From NCBI GenBank assembly GCA_964532715.1, contig CAZHIX010000002.1:1-35606 (forward strand): a stretch of DNA of 35,606 bases. The letters are read 5' to 3'. Of the stretch, positions 2 to 21,760 are shown in pieces; within the stretch, counting starts at the first letter, position 1, and each line of letters opens with the position of its first letter. The stretch comes from Candidatus Micrarchaeota archaeon. GTDB taxonomy: Archaea; Micrarchaeota; Micrarchaeia; Anstonellales; Anstonellaceae. Under the pieces are notes generated by a model. The model was not told the DNA's origin, ran no database searches, and worked only from the letters and a program-made list of their open reading frames with translations. The translations under genes and the position numbers were made by a program.

Positions 2-1369
2 GAAGTAAACGAGTTATGTCCACAATGTAAGCGAAATGGGCGCGTGTATTGTCCTCACAAACCACTTCTGTCAATAAAATCCTCACATATTAAAGATTTT
101 GATAAAACTGAATTTTTTGGTCCATCTCCTCCAAATATATTTGTAGGTCATTTCGGTTATCCAAAAATAAATGTTGGGCCTATGGTCTGTGTAGAAGCTG
201 GATTGTCAGACAATCCAAAAGATTGGTTTGGATGGAACTTTGATAAAATAATTTATGCACGTTCAATGCAGATTCGTTCTCAAATTAATTCTGCAGTATC
301 TGGTGCAAAAAATTTGCGCGCTCAAAAAATGGATTCTACGTCTGCTCGCATAATCTCAGATTCACAAGAAGCGGCTATGTCTGTGGCTGCAATTGACGTA
401 GAGACACATTTTTCAAAAAAGCCTATTTTGAACGTGTCATTTCATTCAATAAATCAGCCCATGGGTCCAAGCGCACCTCTAAAAAAATTAATTGTTGCTC
501 AAAATCCAAAAATCCCAAAAAAATTAGATGCTCTTGTTGATGATGGCGTGAAATCTCAAGACGCGTTACTTGAACTTTTTTCTCTTGGTTTTGATGAGCA
601 CTATTTAACTAGAATACTTACTGCTGGAGTTTTAGGAAAAAAAGACGCGCGTAAATTTGTTCCTACTAAGTGGGGTATAACTGCTGTGGACGATACGCTT
701 GCAAAAGCGCAGATTGAAAAAATCAAGCAATTGCCTCAAAATAGCGATTTTCTATTATATGAAGGTGAGTATCTTTCAAATCGTTTTCACATCCTAATAT
801 TACCTGGCGCATGGGAATATGAAAATTTTGAAGCATGGGTCGGTTCTTTATCCTCAAATTGGGTCGAAGACCCCGCAACTCAATCGACGGCTAAAGCCGT
901 CGGTGCACCAACGCCTGTATACAGGCGTTGGTTGTGTTGCGGGTCCAATTTGGGGATAGACTGCCGAATGAGGGATACCCCACTGCTTGCAGTGGGGACT
1001 CTTCGGCAGGCTTCATCAAATTTCAATATAAGTGTAGAGTATGAACCATATTGGGGTAGAACAAATTATGCATCTTCTCAAGGAGGCGGTTATTACTCTG
1101 CTCGGTTTAGTGTGTGTGAAATGCTTGTGTCCAAGCTTAAACGTCAAGCGCGCGTAGTTTTAATTCGTGAGATTTTGCCTGGGTATGAGTTGCCCTGTGG
1201 GGTCTGGGTAATTCGTGAAACTGTAAGAAATGCATTTTCAAACCCTGTTCAAAAATTTGCAAGCATAGAACAGTTGCAAGATGTTCTATGTAAAAATCTA
1301 AGCGCCCCTCTCTTGAATTTTATTTCAAAAAGCAATATTCTGGCACAAAAAAGGCTTGTTGATTTTTAA
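2..1369 (+). CDS. nreA: Nre-family DNA repair protein (NreA-like, Nre_N/Nre_C = DUF650/DUF651). The 5' end is cut by the window edge. It contains a 54-codon insertion (see findings).
   Basis: The frame is open back to nt 2 (EVNELCPQCKRNGRVYCP, a zinc-ribbon-like N-terminus upstream of the listed GTG at 44). Family blocks seen: FFGPSPPNIFVGHFGYP, FVPTKWGITAVDDTL, GAWEYENFEAW, GRTNYA..GGGYYSARF, PCGVWVIRETVRNAF. Confidence 0.8.
   Translation, partial: EVNELCPQCKRNGRVYCPHKPLLSIKSSHIKDFDKTEFFGPSPPNIFVGHFGYPKINVGPMVCVEAGLSDNPKDWFGWNFDKIIYARSMQIRSQINSAVSGAKNLRAQKMDSTSARIISDSQEAAMSVAAIDVETHFSKKPILNVSFHSINQPMGPSAPLKKLIVAQNPKIPKKLDALVDDGVKSQDALLELFSLGFDEHYLTRILTAGVLGKKDARKFVPTKWGITAVDDTLAKAQIEKIKQLPQNSDFLLYEGEYLSNRFHILILPGAWEYENFEAWVGSLSSNWVEDPATQSTAKAVGAPTPVYRRWLCCGSNLGIDCRMRDTPLLAVGTLRQASSNFNISVEYEPYWGRTNYASSQGGGYYSARFSVCEMLVSKLKRQARVVLIREILPGYELPCGVWVIRETVRNAFSNPVQKFASIEQLQDVLCKNLSAPLLNFISKSNILAQKRLVDF
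851..860 (+). repeat. Left copy of the 10-nt direct repeat (TCCTCAAATT) flanking the nreA insertion
   Basis: It matches 1013-1022 at 9 of 10 positions. Both copies are read as Ser-Ser-Asn in the nreA frame. Confidence 0.7.
1013..1022 (+). repeat. Right copy of the 10-nt direct repeat (TCATCAAATT) flanking the nreA insertion
   Basis: See the left copy. The offset is 162 nt, which is 54 codons. Confidence 0.7.
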
Positions 1370-1478: not shown

Positions 1479-3413
1479 ATGGTAGTTATCAAATCAAATA
1501 CAAATTCTTCTCTCCCCCAAAACACTCCGATAGATAATAAGACTGCTAAGTACGAAGCTCAAATAGCTAAAGCACAACTTGAAATTCTTAGACAAAACTT
1601 ACTTATTGATTATCTGGATAATGCAATTAAATCTTCAAAAGAACAACGAGCATCTGTTCTTAGTGGGGTGTATGATCCTCAAGTAAGTGCATCAATCAGA
1701 GATTTTATGATCAACCCCCAAAATAAACAAAATGAGCAAGTTCCTGCTGAAATTGATGTAAGTAAATTAGTTCTCAACGCTATATTGAACCCTGCGCAAA
1801 AACCAACAGATCCAAAAAATATCAATCACAGTGAAGTCGTGCGCGACTTTATATTAAATGGTTCAAACGCACAGGTTTTGGGCAACAAACAAAATTTGCA
1901 AAACGATATTCTTACTGAAGACACGAATTCTTCTAATCAATCCGATTCTGCAAATCAAGTTTCAGATGTTTCTGAAGCACCAAATGCAAATACTCAAGAA
2001 ATAATGGATGATGCAAAACAAAAATTCTCAAATTATCAAACCGAGGCAACGAGCTCTGATAGCAAGTTCTCATCTTATGATCAAGAGCTATTTCCAGAAT
2101 ACGAAAATAATACGACTGAGACTCCAGCGTCCACTCAAGAAAAAAGGACCTCTGATTCTAGCGACTCTTTTCCAATAGTTGGCGATTTAACCGAACCAAT
2201 TGATTCTGAATATGATAATTTCGACGATTCAGCTTTTGGTGCACAAGAAAACAAACGCGCACAAACTCAGCAAGACTTAGGACAAAATAATGTTCAATCA
2301 CAAGATGACGCTCAATCAAATGCAGATAACTTTGATGATGTCAACACTACCAAAAACACATCTTCTAAAAACACAACAAAAGAAAAATCAGGCAAATTCA
2401 AAAAGTTTGTAAAACGCTCTTTAGTTACACTTGCAATCGTAGCAGGCGCGTTTGGAATATACAAATCTTGCAACATGCCAACTGAGGATTCATACGTAAT
2501 CAACAATCCCCCTAAAATAGTTTTTCCTCAAGATTCATCCGAATCACAAAATCCTGCAGATTCTATTTTGATCCCGCCAAGCACTCCTGACACCTTACCA
2601 AAACAAATTCCTGCACCAATAGACACTTCTAAATCAACCAAAATTGTTCCAGTCAATCCAGCTACTCCAAAAGACACCTCTAATTTAGAAAATAACAAAA
2701 AACAGATTTCTGCTCGCTACACAGTTGAAGACGGAATATATAAATTCAATCTTTCAGATAAAGATGTTGAAAATCTTGCGCTTGCAAGAAAACTTGGTAT
2801 TTCAGGATTTTTCAAATACGTTTTACAAGCGCGTAGTGAATTCAAGGGCTTAGATAAAGAGTTTTTTGAAACTTTGAATAAGAATTGTATTTTGAATTTG
2901 AATAAAACATACGAAGAAGTATGCAAATCTTGCAATTACTGGAAAGTTTCTGATCTGCTAAACAAATCTGAAAACGGTACTCCTCAAGTTTGGATCAAAC
3001 TAACTGATTTAACCTCAGATTTAATCAATACTAATCCTTTATCGGTATTTGATTGCGATAAAATTTTGAGTTTGGCTGGAATGAGTGAGAACAATTTAAG
3101 CAAATTGTATTCAGACTATGATTCAAATGGCAACTACATAATCTATGCCAATTGGTTAAGTAGTGCCGATTCTGTGTCCATATCCGATTCCTCAAAAGTT
3201 TCAATGGCAGAAGTAAAACAAGCACTTAATGACTGCGGTTTTGTTATTTATGATGTTTTGCCATTAAGCAAATCATCGTTAAGCAAACAAACTTCCATTC
3301 AAACGCAAACACCTACGTCTCAAGAAATGCAATATATTGTTGTTCCATCTGACACGACAACTCAAAAGACGAATGAATGGTCCGTTCCATTGTGGCCACT
3401 AAACAAACACTAA
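1479..3413 (+). CDS. Hypothetical single-pass membrane protein. It has a long Asn/Gln/Ser/Asp-rich low-complexity N-terminal half, one TM helix (LVTLAIVAGAFGIY) and a Pro/Ser/Thr linker plus a C-terminal globular region.
   Basis: It is a long ORF with SD GGTGA 7 nt upstream of the ATG, and the TM segment is visible in the translation. I recognise no family motif. Confidence 0.7.
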   Translation: MVVIKSNTNSSLPQNTPIDNKTAKYEAQIAKAQLEILRQNLLIDYLDNAIKSSKEQRASVLSGVYDPQVSASIRDFMINPQNKQNEQVPAEIDVSKLVLNAILNPAQKPTDPKNINHSEVVRDFILNGSNAQVLGNKQNLQNDILTEDTNSSNQSDSANQVSDVSEAPNANTQEIMDDAKQKFSNYQTEATSSDSKFSSYDQELFPEYENNTTETPASTQEKRTSDSSDSFPIVGDLTEPIDSEYDNFDDSAFGAQENKRAQTQQDLGQNNVQSQDDAQSNADNFDDVNTTKNTSSKNTTKEKSGKFKKFVKRSLVTLAIVAGAFGIYKSCNMPTEDSYVINNPPKIVFPQDSSESQNPADSILIPPSTPDTLPKQIPAPIDTSKSTKIVPVNPATPKDTSNLENNKKQISARYTVEDGIYKFNLSDKDVENLALARKLGISGFFKYVLQARSEFKGLDKEFFETLNKNCILNLNKTYEEVCKSCNYWKVSDLLNKSENGTPQVWIKLTDLTSDLINTNPLSVFDCDKILSLAGMSENNLSKLYSDYDSNGNYIIYANWLSSADSVSISDSSKVSMAEVKQALNDCGFVIYDVLPLSKSSLSKQTSIQTQTPTSQEMQYIVVPSDTTTQKTNEWSVPLWPLNKH

Positions 3414-15102: not shown

Positions 15103-16224
15103 TCACTGTTTTGTTTTATTCTCTGGTTTTTTTACTGCTATTCTCCATATGCGCGTTCGTCCCTGTCCTTTTCTCACTTCTTCACATTCTAAAATTCCAA
15201 TTGTGTTTAGCTTCTCTAAATGATTTCTTATCCCCCTTATTTTTTCTTGAGGTATTTTTAATTTATCATAAATCTGACCTGACTCAATAGGGGTTCTATT
15301 GTCACGCACGATCTGGATTATTTTTTTGTCAACATCTTCAAGTGCATTTTCTTTTCTTTGTGCAAGCGTATTCTCTGTTTGCACTGCGCGTTCTCTAACT
15401 GCTTGCACATGTTCAACTGTAATTTTTTTACACGACTGAGTTTGAGCTTTTTTTGCTGATGCCCAAAGCAAGTGTAGTGCAAGTCTCGCATCTCCTTGTG
15501 ATTTTGCGCCTATCCCTGCGCAAAGCCCTAATACGTCCTCGTCATATGCGTCATCAAATAATGCTATTTTTGCTCTTTGTCTAAGTATTTCTTTGAGCTG
15601 AGTAGGTGTGTATTGTTCAAAATAAATCGTGTGATTTGCAAGCACAGACCTGACGCGCGCATCAAGTTTTAATGTAATCTCCTTTTCATTTGTTATGGCA
15701 ATCAATGAACTTGATAACCCTATAGCTTCTTGTGATCTTGATAAATCGTAGAGAATTTTATCGTCTTGTGTTGAACTATCTAAGAGTCTATCTACTTCGT
15801 CAAGTATGATGATTGGGATTCTTTTTTCTCTTCTTCCAATCTCTGCGAGTCTTGCAACTATTTCATCAGTTGCAATTCCTCTTCGTGGAAGCATATCTCC
15901 AAGTTCAATCACAATCTTGTTCAATATCGCGTATCTTGTAGTTGTCTCCCAACAATTGATGTAAATCATAATTGGAGCGTTTGAAACTTCACATAACTGA
16001 GTAAGTAATAATTTGGATATCGTAGTTTTTCCAGTTCCCGGGGGTCCAACCAACAACATAGATTGAGGTGCGACTCCGCGTGTCGCCTCTTGCAAATACG
16101 ATGCCATGTCTTTCATCTGTCGTTCTCTTGTGGGCATTTCGTCTGGCATGAACTCAGGCCTTAGTGCATTTTCATTTTTGAATATATCGCTGTTTTTTTC
16201 CATCTGGCGAAAAATGTTTGCCAT
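15103..16224 (-). CDS. cdc6: Orc1/Cdc6 replication initiator (paralog 1)
   Basis: It has Walker A GPPGTGKTT, Walker B IIILDEVD, sensor regions and a C-terminal winged helix (RNHLEKLNTIGILECEE..GRTRIW). Confidence 0.9.
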   Translation of the reverse strand: MANIFRQMEKNSDIFKNENALRPEFMPDEMPTRERQMKDMASYLQEATRGVAPQSMLLVGPPGTGKTTISKLLLTQLCEVSNAPIMIYINCWETTTRYAILNKIVIELGDMLPRRGIATDEIVARLAEIGRREKRIPIIILDEVDRLLDSSTQDDKILYDLSRSQEAIGLSSSLIAITNEKEITLKLDARVRSVLANHTIYFEQYTPTQLKEILRQRAKIALFDDAYDEDVLGLCAGIGAKSQGDARLALHLLWASAKKAQTQSCKKITVEHVQAVRERAVQTENTLAQRKENALEDVDKKIIQIVRDNRTPIESGQIYDKLKIPQEKIRGIRNHLEKLNTIGILECEEVRKGQGRTRIWRIAVKKPENKTKQ

Positions 16225-19494: not shown

Positions 19495-19579
19495 AATTTA
19501 TTTATATTTTAATTTATATACTTGGACTCAAAACAACAAAAAATTGTTTTGATGTTTTGCGACAGTTAGGGGTGATCTG

Positions 19580-19873
19580 TTGGCTGAGAAAACGATAGTT
19601 TTTGATGGGCGGGAGTATAGGGGGATATGTTATGAGCTTGGAAACAAGCCATTGCTTATTCTAAAAGCTAAGAAAGGCTATGTTGCGTGTTCTTATCTTG
19701 ATCGCTCTTCTGCCGAAAATCTTGGGGATATTGCCGCGTTTGTTTGCGGAGTAGACTCGTTTGAGGATCTCTATACCTCCAAAATAAAAAATATGACTGC
19801 ATGGGCCGAAGAAATGGGCATACGAGAAGGTATGTCTGTTAAAAAAGCACTTGAACTCATGGATAAGTTCTGA
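19580..19873 (+). CDS. DUF1805 (YunC-like) domain protein
   Basis: It has a TTG start preceded by SD GGGGTGAT. The blocks G.CYELGNKPLLILKAKKGYVAC.YL....AE.LGD.AA.V.GV are typical of DUF1805. Confidence 0.65.
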   Translation: MAEKTIVFDGREYRGICYELGNKPLLILKAKKGYVACSYLDRSSAENLGDIAAFVCGVDSFEDLYTSKIKNMTAWAEEMGIREGMSVKKALELMDKF

Positions 19874-19900
19874 GGTAGTCGGACTATTTCGTCCTCTATT

Positions 19901-20503: not shown

Positions 20504-21760
20504 TCATCCCTGCTCAAGCTTTGTTTGTTGTATTGTGGGTGCGCAATATCCAATCAGTGCACCTAGAGCTTTTTGAGACATTATAATATCTTTCATTTGT
20601 TGTGGTTCATATCCCGGTTTTATCAATCTGGTGTGACCACGTAGGCCCCTTCCAGATTCAATAGTTGTAATAAGTCCAAGCATTTCTAAATCGTTTAGAT
20701 ACTCTCTATACCATCTTGCAGATCGCTTTGGTTTTTTGAATTGTCTGCATACTTTTGAATATTCTTCATAAACTTCTCCTGACATGAGACTTTTTTCAAT
20801 ATCTTGTCCGTCTGTAAGTTTTTTGTAACTTGAGCTTTTGAGCCATAAATTACAAACTGCAAGTAATACTAATTGTTGATGTGTAGGTAGCGTGGCTATA
20901 GTCTCAGCTGCTAAATCCACATCCACATTTCTTCTTGCCTGTTCAACCTCGCTGTCTGTAACTATCCCAATCTTTTTCTCATCAGCATATTCTCCTGCCT
21001 TTAATAGAAGCTTTAATGCATATCTTGCATCACCCGTTTCTGATGCCACTATGGCAGACGCTAAATTTATTGCAGACTCATGAACTGTCCCATCCTTGAA
21101 TCCTTCCATAGCTCTTTGTTCAAGTATCGCGCGCAACTGAATTGGCGTATAAGTTGCAAACGCCATCTCAGTTTCACATAATGACGATTTGCTTCTTGAA
21201 TCTAGCGCATCTTTAAACGATAATCTATTAGTTATACCTATAATTGTAACTGAACCTACCTTGAGCTCGTCGTTCATTCTGGTCAGCGTATACATTAATT
21301 CGTCTAAATCTTTTACCATATCAACTTCATCAAGTATAACTATAACTCTTCTTGGGATAGCGCCAAGATTATCTATATACTCAATCAATTTTTCATAAAA
21401 ATGTGAAAGCCCAAACCCAGTTTTATCAAGTTCTGGCAAATACTCCTTTGCAATTTTCTGTATGACTCTATATCTGGAATTATACATTCTGCAATTTACA
21501 TAAACTGGTGGCGATTCTGGTTTTTTTTGCACGTATTCTCGCATAACCATTCTTACTGTGCAAGTTTTTCCTGTCCCAGTTTTTCCATATATGAATAAGT
21601 TTCTAGGCCGTTCCCCATTTATTGCAGGCGCAACCGAAACCATAACTTTCTCAATCTCTTTATCTCTAAATGGTAAAACTTCAGGTACAAAATGTGGGGA
21701 CAGCACGTCTCGTTTTCTAAAAACCGTCGGAGAAGATAATATCTCATCAAATGAAGGCAT
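20504..21760 (-). CDS. cdc6: Orc1/Cdc6 replication initiator (paralog 2)
   Basis: It has Walker A GKTGTGKT, Walker B VIVILDEVD, GDARYALKLL (sensor 2) and a C-terminal winged helix (YLNDLEMLGLI..ESGRGLRGHTRLI). Confidence 0.9.
   Translation of the reverse strand: MPSFDEILSSPTVFRKRDVLSPHFVPEVLPFRDKEIEKVMVSVAPAINGERPRNLFIYGKTGTGKTCTVRMVMREYVQKKPESPPVYVNCRMYNSRYRVIQKIAKEYLPELDKTGFGLSHFYEKLIEYIDNLGAIPRRVIVILDEVDMVKDLDELMYTLTRMNDELKVGSVTIIGITNRLSFKDALDSRSKSSLCETEMAFATYTPIQLRAILEQRAMEGFKDGTVHESAINLASAIVASETGDARYALKLLLKAGEYADEKKIGIVTDSEVEQARRNVDVDLAAETIATLPTHQQLVLLAVCNLWLKSSSYKKLTDGQDIEKSLMSGEVYEEYSKVCRQFKKPKRSARWYREYLNDLEMLGLITTIESGRGLRGHTRLIKPGYEPQQMKDIIMSQKALGALIGYCAPTIQQTKLEQG

What the first reader, a model, noticed from the sequence alone, without database searches (positions are those of the whole stretch)
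851..1022. 162-nt GC-rich in-frame insertion in nreA, bounded by a 10-nt direct repeat
Seen directly:
- nt 861-1010 contain 88 G+C of 150 (hand count, about 59%). The flanking 60-mers have 23/60 and 19/60.
- TCCTCAAATT (851-860) recurs as TCATCAAATT (1013-1022) exactly 162 nt (54 codons) downstream. Both copies are read as Ser-Ser-Asn.
- Removing one repeat copy plus the intervening sequence gives ...GAWEYENFEAWVGSLSSNFNISVEYEPYWGRTNYA...
- The insert has no stop codon. It encodes an odd peptide (VEDPATQSTAKAVGAPTPVYRRWLCCGSNLGIDCRMRDTPLLAVGTLRQA) that resembles no Nre block.
Established knowledge: in the Nre proteins I know (for example haloarchaeal NreA), the WE.E.IE block and the EG..GRT.Y block are about 20-25 residues apart. 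Here they are about 75 apart.
Inference: this is a recent insertion into a conserved gene. Three options seem possible.
- (a) It is a translated palindromic mobile element, analogous to Rickettsia palindromic elements.
- (b) It is an intervening sequence removed at the RNA level.
- (c) It is bypassed by the ribosome using the matched Ser-Ser-Asn take-off and landing codons, as in T4 gene 60 or the GC-rich byp elements of yeast mitochondria.
I know of none of these being described for Nre or for DPANN-like archaea.
Basis: partly seen in the sequence, partly recalled or inferred. Interest (0 to 1): 0.8.

Follow-up and report, generated by a model that had tools for sequence, protein, structure and literature searches.

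The report
GC-rich hairpin repeat inside nreA
The GC-rich stretch inside this archaeal DNA-repair gene is one copy of a small, strongly folding repeat element also found at unrelated places in related Micrarchaeota; it sits in frame in a flexible loop and is most likely simply translated.

Summary
The GC-rich, stop-free, in-frame insert in nreA is real, but its limits and the meaning of the 10-nt repeat need correcting.

- **A dispersed repeat.** Three more copies exist. Two are held as DNA: L010 (93% identical, between convergent ORFs) and L005 (90%, directly after a stop codon). The third is seen only as the antisense translation at the C-terminus of protein P0121.
- **Limits.** Homology begins at 845, so the left repeat TCCTCAAATT lies inside the element, as the 5' arm of a 17-bp stem. 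Removing 845-1009 (165 nt, 55 codons) gives G-A-S-S-N-F. That aligns without gaps to G-A-P-D-N-F in the closest orthologues.
- **No transposon hallmarks.** There are no terminal inverted repeats and no target duplication. Every copy abuts G-Y-T-T-C-A-T-S, and one empty site has GCTCATC at the junction.
- **Fold.** Two hairpin domains, -100 kcal/mol, z about -10. This is the only structural outlier in the window. No Rfam family, tRNA or bulge-helix-bulge motif matches.
- **Protein.** The encoded segment is predicted disordered. It lies between two confident strands, at a site where other Micrarchaeota carry unrelated insertions of about 11-55 aa. Nre_C and the C-terminal PCNA-binding motif stay in frame.

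Best reading: a selfish element like the Rickettsia palindromic elements, tolerated and translated. Excision as an intron or ribosomal bypass is unsupported but not excluded without RNA or protein data.

The parts
2..1369 (+). nreA gene, cut at its 5' end by the window start. It carries Nre_N, Nre_C and the C-terminal motif QKRLVDF.
   Evidence: Pfam Nre_N 3.3e-73 and Nre_C 6e-29. The protein shares all 73 columns that are invariant across the 40-sequence alignment. Gene order matches that of relatives.
845..1009 (+). Inserted repeat element, 165 nt (55 codons), 55-58% GC, made of two hairpin domains.
   Evidence: Homology to L010 1184-1346 (92.7%) and L005 173-337 (89.7%). Removing it makes Nre colinear with its orthologues. 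Fold -100.2 kcal/mol, z -9.9.
847..960 (+). Domain 1. A 17-bp closing stem (847-863 with 944-960), then an 8-bp stem (872-879 with 936-943), then two hairpins (883-904 and 907-932).
   Evidence: Minimum-energy and consensus folds. The closing stem has only one varying position across the three DNA copies.
961..1009 (+). Domain 2. A hairpin with stems of 8, 3 and 8 bp, directly abutting domain 1.
   Evidence: The pair 962-1008 reads U-A, U-G and C-G in the three copies.
1010..1017 (+). GCTTCATC, the motif found next to every copy. It is either the preferred target or a microhomology. Here it encodes Ala-Ser-Ser of the restored loop.
   Evidence: L010 has GTTTCATC, L005 GTTTCATG, and P0121 back-translates to GC YTC RTC. 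The empty site in L013 has GCTCATC at the junction.
851..860 (+). It is internal to the element, as part of the 5' arm of the closing stem.
   Evidence: Identical in L005 and L010.
1013..1022 (+). It consists of the flank motif (TCATC) plus the host Asn-Phe codons (A AAT T).
   Evidence: Orthologues have GAY AAT TTC at this place.

Best explanation
Positions 845-1009 are one copy of a small family of about 165-nt, GC-rich elements found in AT-rich Micrarchaeota. On the + strand the element folds into two adjacent hairpin domains.

**How it got there.** It entered nreA as DNA, between the Gly codon (842-844) and the Ala codon (1010-1012). It has no terminal inverted repeats and made no target duplication. 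It lies directly 5' of a GYTTCATS motif, as the other copies do.

**Why it is tolerated.** The length is 55 codons. The sense frame that nreA reads is the only one of six frames without a stop. The site is a surface loop between Nre_N and Nre_C that accepts insertions in other lineages. So the gene stayed intact, and the ribosome most likely reads straight through. The element adds 55 residues (282-336 of the window translation), predicted disordered, and Nre_C and the PCNA-binding C-terminus are still made.

**Shown:** the repeat family, the limits, the fold, colinearity with orthologues, the permissive loop, the intact downstream domain.

**Inferred:** translation through the element; site-specific insertion, possibly through a folded single strand; the selfish nature of the element.
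For: **Other copies**
- P0121 ends in the antisense translation of the element, 93% identical over 45 aa.
- L005 is a copy directly after a stop codon.
- L010 is a copy between convergent ORFs.
- Nothing else matches in 129 kb of held sequence.

**Empty sites**
- Orthologues L006 and L008 read GGC GCN CCN GAY AAT TTC at the site.
- Removing 845-1009 restores gapless colinearity.
- P0126 in L013, the uninterrupted orthologue of P0121, has GCTCATC at the junction.

**Fold**
- z is -9.9 for the window copy, -9.1 for L010 and -4.7 for L005.
- Loop inserts of other Micrarchaeota give z of -0.9 and +0.9.
- The element is the only structural outlier in the window.
- 96% of cells pair in register, against 32-46% when the partners are slid.
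- Window against L010: 7 of 8 differences at paired sites keep + strand pairing. Differences run at 8/126 paired sites against 7/39 unpaired sites (Fisher p 0.05).

**Protein**
- pLDDT is below 50 only at residues 285-337, between confident strands 272-280 and 341-346.
- Unrelated inserts of about 11-55 aa occupy the same site in other Micrarchaeota.
- Only one of six frames is open across the element.
- Loss of the NreA PIP motif phenocopies loss of NreA in Haloferax (PMC4929162). That motif lies downstream of the insert and is in frame here.
Against: - There are no RNA or protein data, so read-through is inferred only.
- Only four copies are known, one of them only as protein. No autonomous partner or transposase was found, in the window or elsewhere.
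- Whether GYTTCATS belongs to the target or to the element is unresolved within about 8 nt. If the element is taken as 845-1017 (173 nt), exact removal breaks the frame.
- Covariation is not significant with three sequences: 1 compensatory pair, and 327 of 500 shuffles score as high.
- TCNTCAAATT recurs at junctions: the right junction in the window and the left junction in L010. The model does not explain this.
- A -100 kcal/mol structure inside a coding region could impede translation.
Confidence: 0.68

Rival explanations
1. The element is removed from the nreA transcript. It would act as an intron or processing substrate, cut by the archaeal splicing endonuclease or by an unknown activity that recognises the two stacked hairpin domains. 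The mature mRNA would then encode an ordinary Nre.
For: - The insert is exactly two self-contained hairpin domains with only 2 unpaired nt at its 5' end, so positions 846 and 1010 come close together.
- Removing 165 nt restores a loop of orthologue length.
- Substitutions between the window and L010 copies favour pairing on the + strand, which is the mRNA sense.
- Three of four copies lie downstream of, or within, an ORF in the same orientation.
- From the literature: ARMAN-type splicing endonucleases have broad substrate range (abstracts of PMC5829648 and PMC12397907).
Against: - No bulge-helix-bulge motif pairs the two junctions. The 12 weak candidates are misplaced; the one examined in detail would be out of frame and remove invariant residues.
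- No Rfam intron or ribozyme matches, even at E up to 10.
- Copies lie in intergenic DNA and antisense to P0121, where splicing has no role.
- The sense frame being open is unnecessary for an intron, but is required if the element is translated.
Confidence: 0.1
2. The insertion has inactivated or crippled nreA. The open frame would be luck (about 1 chance in 6), and the gene is on its way to becoming a pseudogene.
For: NreA is dispensable under normal growth in Haloferax (PMC4929162). Because 165 is a multiple of 3, the downstream frame would be kept whatever frame is read, and one of six frames lacks stops.
Against: - The protein shares all 73 columns that are invariant across the 40-sequence alignment.
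- Nre_N, Nre_C and the C-terminal Q..L..F motif are intact.
- The model outside the insert is confident, with pTM 0.81.
- The loop tolerates inserts of similar length in other lineages.
Confidence: 0.1
3. Ribosomes bypass about 162 nt, taking off at Ser-Ser-Asn (851-859) and landing at Ser-Ser-Asn (1013-1021). This would resemble T4 gene 60 or the mitochondrial byp elements.
For: Matched codons lie 162 nt apart, and a strong structure begins at the take-off site.
Against: - The take-off codons are element sequence present in every copy, including intergenic ones.
- No stop or unusual codon follows them; the next codon is TGG. The gap is an open frame.
- From my own knowledge, known bypasses span about 27-55 nt, against 162 nt here.
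Confidence: 0.02
4. The segment is a protein loop that arose in place in this lineage, by expansion and drift as in other Micrarchaeota. It would not be an inserted element.
For: Other Micrarchaeota have inserts of about 11-55 aa at the same site.
Against: - The same DNA, about 90-93% identical, occurs in unrelated, partly non-coding contexts in other contigs.
- Those copies carry stops in this frame.
- GC content and folding are extreme here but ordinary in the other lineages' loops.
Confidence: 0.01

Closest known systems
Rickettsia palindromic elements (RPEs)
   Same: Short (about 100-150 bp), dispersed, hairpin-forming repeats. They sit in frame inside unrelated protein-coding genes and are translated as extra surface segments compatible with the fold (review PMC10969869). 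Here there is one in-frame copy in a permissive loop, plus intergenic and gene-end copies.
   Different: The host is an archaeon of the DPANN group, not a bacterium, and no sequence relation is expected. Only four copies are known, and only one is fully within an intact ORF. The element is GC-rich in an AT-rich genome. All copies abut a common 8-nt motif.
[quoted passage not shown]
   Same: Small, non-coding, multi-copy, strongly folding, presumably moved in trans. They can create in-frame fusions (PMC10969869).
   Different: The two defining marks are absent. The outer ends are not inverted repeats; the left end pairs with an internal segment at 944-960. There is no target site duplication.
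Non-autonomous derivatives of IS200/IS605 (palindrome-associated elements) and REP elements moved by HUH/Y1 transposases
   Same: No inverted repeats and no duplication. Hairpins at or near the ends. Insertion next to a fixed short motif. Signs of strand-specific folding. Frequent location at gene 3' ends. (Family properties are from my own knowledge.)
   Different: The shared motif is 7-8 nt rather than 4-5. The hairpins reach almost to the very ends, leaving no room for the usual guide segments. No Y1 transposase or TnpB partner was found. No omega-RNA or IS605-related Rfam family matches.
GC clusters and byp elements of yeast mitochondria
   Same: GC-rich, hairpin-forming mobile inserts in very AT-rich genomes that can lie within coding sequence. 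(From my own knowledge.)
   Different: Those are 30-60 nt. Byp elements are skipped by the ribosome and are not open frames. Here the insert is 165 nt and stop-free.
Archaeal bulge-helix-bulge introns in protein-coding genes (cbf5 of Crenarchaeota; PMC2738675, listed)
   Same: A short intervening sequence in an archaeal protein-coding gene, whose removal would restore the orthologous protein.
   Different: No bulge-helix-bulge motif lies at the junctions. Copies occur outside genes and antisense to a gene. The insert keeps an open frame.

Membership tests
MITE | Terminal inverted repeats at the two outer ends | tested here: not met
   The left end TCTTTATCCTCAAATTGGG pairs with the internal segment 944-960, not with the right end ..CTTCGGCAG(GCTTCATC).
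MITE | Target site duplication flanking each copy | tested here: not met
   Left and right flanks are no more alike than shuffles in any of the three DNA copies (p 0.48-0.68).
MITE | Small, non-coding, several dispersed copies | tested here: met
   165 nt. Four copies in four unrelated contexts.
MITE | A related autonomous insertion sequence sharing the ends | not testable with these tools
   The source genome is not in the searchable collections. There is no transposase in the window and no match in plasmids, phages or viral contigs.
RPE-like in-frame palindromic repeat (works like, not sequence membership) | A dispersed hairpin-forming repeat inserted in frame, leaving the host ORF intact | tested here: met
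   55 codons with no stop. Nre_C and the PIP motif are in frame. Fold z -9.9.
RPE-like in-frame palindromic repeat (works like, not sequence membership) | The inserted peptide lies at the protein surface, compatible with the fold | tested here: met
   pLDDT is below 50 only at 285-337, between confident strands. The rest of the model is confident. The same site is variable in orthologues.
RPE-like in-frame palindromic repeat (works like, not sequence membership) | The insert is actually translated | not testable with these tools
   Needs proteomics or ribosome profiling.
Archaeal bulge-helix-bulge intron | Two 3-nt bulges separated by a 4-bp helix, formed by the two junctions | tested here: not met
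   A scan of both arrangements over 800-900 against 960-1060 gave 12 weak candidates. None lies at usable junctions; the one examined in detail would be out of frame and remove invariant residues.
Archaeal bulge-helix-bulge intron | Removal restores the orthologous reading frame | tested here: inconclusive
   Removing 845-1009 restores it. Removing the full stretch of homology, 845-1017, breaks it.
Self-splicing intron or self-cleaving ribozyme | Match to a known catalytic RNA family | tested here: not met
   No Rfam match at gathering score in the window. The best local matches are at E 0.47-6.8, with the hammerhead at 12.6 bits against a threshold of 34.
Programmed translational bypass (gene 60, byp) | Matched take-off and landing codons | tested here: met
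   Ser-Ser-Asn at 851-859 and 1013-1021. The left set is element sequence in all copies.
Programmed translational bypass (gene 60, byp) | A stop or unreadable codon after take-off, and a short non-coding gap | tested here: not met
   The next codon is TGG. The 162-nt gap is an open frame.
IS200/IS605-derived element | No inverted repeats, no duplication, insertion next to a fixed short sequence | tested here: met
   GYTTCATS abuts all four copies, and GCTCATC lies at the one empty site available.
IS200/IS605-derived element | Subterminal hairpins with guide segments that pair with the cleavage sites; a Y1 transposase or TnpB partner | tested here: inconclusive
   Hairpins are present but reach the ends, with 2 nt and 0 nt unpaired. 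No partner gene was found. No omega-RNA family matches.

The most novel reading that the evidence does not exclude
The element may be a new kind of archaeal mobile unit. It would insert site-specifically next to GYTTCATS, without inverted repeats or duplication, and its + strand fold would be the functional part. That fold could serve as the single-stranded substrate or guide for a recombinase acting in trans. Alternatively it could be an RNA that the cell cuts out of the host transcript. Its length of exactly 55 codons, with one open sense frame, would then be an adaptation that lets it live inside genes of a very compact genome.
Probability: 0.12. Interest if true: 0.8.

Novelty: new variant of a known kind. 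Interest (0 to 1): 0.5.

Why it matters
- It would be an archaeal (DPANN) counterpart of the Rickettsia palindromic elements: selfish DNA that survives inside a conserved gene by being translatable. I found no report of this for Micrarchaeota in the literature searches.
- It gives a concrete case for asking how small, gene-dense genomes tolerate mobile DNA.
- It marks the Nre_N/Nre_C junction as a permissive loop.
- The shared flank motif, the lack of transposon hallmarks and the hints of strand-specific structural constraint point to an undescribed way of moving that is worth testing.
- For annotation: such inserts inflate protein length and create false 'novel' peptide segments. Gene callers also extend neighbouring ORFs into the element, as with P0121 and P0122.

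Tried and rejected
**Searches that found nothing**
- Rfam at gathering score over the whole window, and at E up to 10 locally; ARAGORN.
- Repeat search in the window found no second copy.
- An exact-pattern scan of GTDB genomes with the central hairpin gave only four chance hits in bacteria.
- Viral contigs: one peptide scan and three DNA patterns.
- Plasmid and phage collections.
- The source contigs of the window and of P0121 are not on record.

**Searches with partial yield**
- A six-frame composite peptide query against the protein collection found only P0121. It missed P0122, which the representative search found later.

**Ideas tested and dropped**
- *Bulge-helix-bulge intron:* only chance-level candidates.
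- *Target duplication:* flank comparison not significant.
- *Recurrent element insertion at this loop in other Micrarchaeota:* their inserts (L011, L012) have ordinary GC and fold z of +0.9 and -0.9.
- *Covariation test:* underpowered with three sequences.
- *Pairing between the element's unpaired 864-871 loop and the flank motif:* checked by eye, only 4 bp and not kept in L010 or L005.
- *Structure search of the Nre model against the PDB:* nothing below E 0.06.
- *Transposase or recombinase in the window:* none among the ORFs scanned.

Full report
**1. The observation**

The window is AT-rich, at 35.3% GC. Positions 2-1369 encode an Nre protein: Nre_N at residues 13-280 and Nre_C at 348-450 of the translation. 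The 5' end of the gene is cut by the window start.

There are 88 G+C in 861-1010, and the flanks hold 24/60 and 18/60. The two 10-mers TCCTCAAATT (851) and TCATCAAATT (1013) are present. The frame is open and the peptide is as quoted. This is the highest GC peak in the window.

In an alignment of 40 Nre proteins the closest orthologues (64-69% identity) have nothing here. More distant Micrarchaeota carry unrelated inserts of about 11-55 aa at exactly this site.

**2. A structured element, and a repeated one**

The + strand of 845-1017 folds at -100.2 kcal/mol, with z = -9.9 against dinucleotide shuffles. The - strand of 841-1030 gives z = -9.0. A sliding scan shows it is the only structural outlier in 35.6 kb, with a residual z of -7.4 against -2.7 for the next region. 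Rfam and ARAGORN find nothing.

Searching the six-frame translations found P0121, a 249-aa protein from NCBI. Its last 45 residues are the antisense translation of the element, 93% identical and mapping to 1017-883.

A back-translated scan of JGI metagenomes found L005, a copy directly after the stop codon of an upstream ORF and next to a nucleotidyltransferase/HEPN gene pair.

A full HMMER search with the sense peptide found P0122. Its contig, L010, carries a 93% identical copy between two convergent ORFs, and both ORFs run into it.

Viral contigs, plasmids and phages gave nothing.

**3. Limits and the 10-nt repeat**

Homology among the three DNA copies starts at window position 845 (TCTTTATCC...) and runs to about 1016-1017. 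So the left 10-mer is inside the element. It is part of the 5' arm of a 17-bp stem (847-863 with 944-960).

Orthologues L006 and L008 read GGC GCN CCN GAY AAT TTC at the site. Removing 845-1009 (165 nt, 55 codons) gives W-V-G-A-S-S-N-F-N-I-S. That aligns without gaps to W-F-G-A-P-D-N-F-S-I-S. Removing the full stretch of homology, 845-1017 (173 nt), breaks the frame.

The AAATT of the right 10-mer is therefore the host Asn-Phe codons. No copy has a flank duplication, and the outer ends are not inverted repeats.

**4. A shared flank motif**

Every copy is followed by G-Y-T-T-C-A-T-S:
- window: GCTTCATC
- L010: GTTTCATC
- L005: GTTTCATG
- P0121: GC YTC RTC (back-translated)

P0126, the uninterrupted orthologue of P0121 (77% identical), continues ..KIADE|QTFGD... 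Its DNA (L013) has GCTCATC exactly where P0121 switches into the element, and P0121 has only one Asp-Glu there. Together with the colinearity in Nre, this suggests the motif is a preferred target or a microhomology used at insertion. The boundary is uncertain within these 8 nt.

One thing is unexplained. TCNTCAAATT occurs six times on the + strand in 40 kb: three times inside copies, twice at junctions (the window's right junction and L010's left junction), and once elsewhere.

**5. Is the fold under selection?**

On the three-copy alignment 96% of cells pair in register, against 32-46% when partners are slid. Only one pair shows a double change (U-A, U-G, C-G), and shuffles match the score in 327 of 500 trials. 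So covariation is not established.

Between the window and L010 copies, 7 of 8 differences at paired sites keep + strand pairing (binomial p 0.035). Differences are also rarer at paired sites (8/126) than at unpaired sites (7/39; Fisher p 0.05). L010 still folds at z = -9.1. L005 is decaying, with z = -4.7 and six broken pairs.

This hints at constraint on the + strand fold, but the sample is tiny.

**6. What happens to Nre**

An AlphaFold model built on the 40-sequence alignment is confident overall (pTM 0.81). pLDDT drops below 50 only at residues 285-337. That falls within the 55 residues the element encodes (282-336 of the window translation) and lies between strands 272-280 and 341-346.

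The protein shares all 73 invariant columns of the alignment and ends in QKRLVDF, the family's PCNA-binding motif. Loss of that motif abolishes NreA function in Haloferax (PMC4929162).

Only one of six frames through the element lacks stops, and it is the one nreA reads. L010 and L005 carry a TGA in that frame.

Inserts at the same loop in other lineages (L011, L012) have ordinary composition and fold z of +0.9 and -0.9, so they are ordinary loop growth and not this element.

**7. Alternatives**

- *Bulge-helix-bulge intron.* A scan of both possible arrangements found only 12 weak, misplaced candidates.
- *Ribozyme or self-splicing intron.* No family matches.
- *Ribosomal bypass.* Nothing requires it. 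The gap is an open frame, no stop follows the take-off codons, and those codons are element sequence in every copy.
- *Mobility mechanism.* No transposase lies in the window, which is a core chromosomal region. It holds CTP synthase, two Orc1/Cdc6 genes, argG and argH, an H+-pyrophosphatase and others. The mechanism of movement remains unknown. The absence of inverted repeats and duplications, the fixed neighbouring motif and the strand-specific fold resemble elements moved as folded single strands (IS200/IS605, REP). Membership is not shown.

**8. Verdict**

The finding is real, and it is an insertion. It is a copy of a previously undescribed small repeat family of Micrarchaeota. It behaves like the Rickettsia palindromic elements: it sits in frame in a permissive loop and is most likely translated (confidence about 0.7).

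The 10-nt 'bounding repeat' is not a target duplication. RNA-level removal (about 0.1) and bypass (about 0.02) remain formally open until RNA or protein data are available.

Noticed in passing
window 15103-16224 (-) and 20504-21760 (-): Two Orc1/Cdc6 genes lie about 4 kb apart (Cdc6_lid, AAA, Cdc6_C). A replication origin may be nearby. The 19495-19900 gap between ORFs, just upstream of one of them, shows mild excess folding (residual z about -2.2 to -2.3) and has no Rfam match.
   Followed up: no
Alignment A1 columns about 390-450 (Nre residues between FEAW.G and ..ISxEYEP): The Nre_N/Nre_C junction varies greatly in length among Micrarchaeota. One clade shares a Cys-containing motif, GPM.C..AT.V, followed by 0-40 extra Gly/Ala/Ser-rich residues. 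P0051 has a Lys/Glu-rich insert of about 50 aa. These are unrelated to the element and are not structured as RNA.
   Followed up: partly
L010 1172-1183 against window 1010-1021: The left flank of the L010 copy (GCATCTTCAAAT) is 10/12 identical to the window's right junction (GCTTCATCAAAT). TCNTCAAATT is strongly enriched at element junctions. This could point to a circular or tandem intermediate, or to a longer target. It is unexplained.
   Followed up: partly
L005 170-175, L010 1181-1186, window 842-847: In all three DNA copies the upstream ORF is in phase with the element's only open frame. In L005 the TGA stop directly abuts the first base of the element. With three cases this could be chance (about 1 in 9).
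   Followed up: no
L010 980-1270 (+) and 1129-1530 (-); P0121 C-terminus: Gene callers extend neighbouring ORFs into the element on both strands. This creates overlapping 'genes' and artificial C-termini: P0122 ends in 28 element-derived residues and P0121 in 45.
   Followed up: yes
window 1479-3413 (+): A 644-aa Asn/Gln/Ser/Thr-rich ORF with no Pfam match lies directly downstream of nreA. A gene occupies this position in relatives too, but its length varies widely: 587 aa in L006 and 242 aa in L008.
   Followed up: no
window 2-1369 (model me7339ec037a7): The confident Nre model has no structural neighbour in the PDB below E 0.06. The top, insignificant hits are aspartyl-tRNA synthetases and OB-fold SSB proteins. 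The Nre fold appears to have no solved representative.
   Followed up: partly
L005 457-1267: The decayed L005 copy lies next to a nucleotidyltransferase (Polbeta/NTP_transf_2) and HEPN gene pair, a typical accessory toxin-antitoxin-like module. The L010 copy lies near a gene encoding HATPase_c_4 and HTH domains.
   Followed up: no
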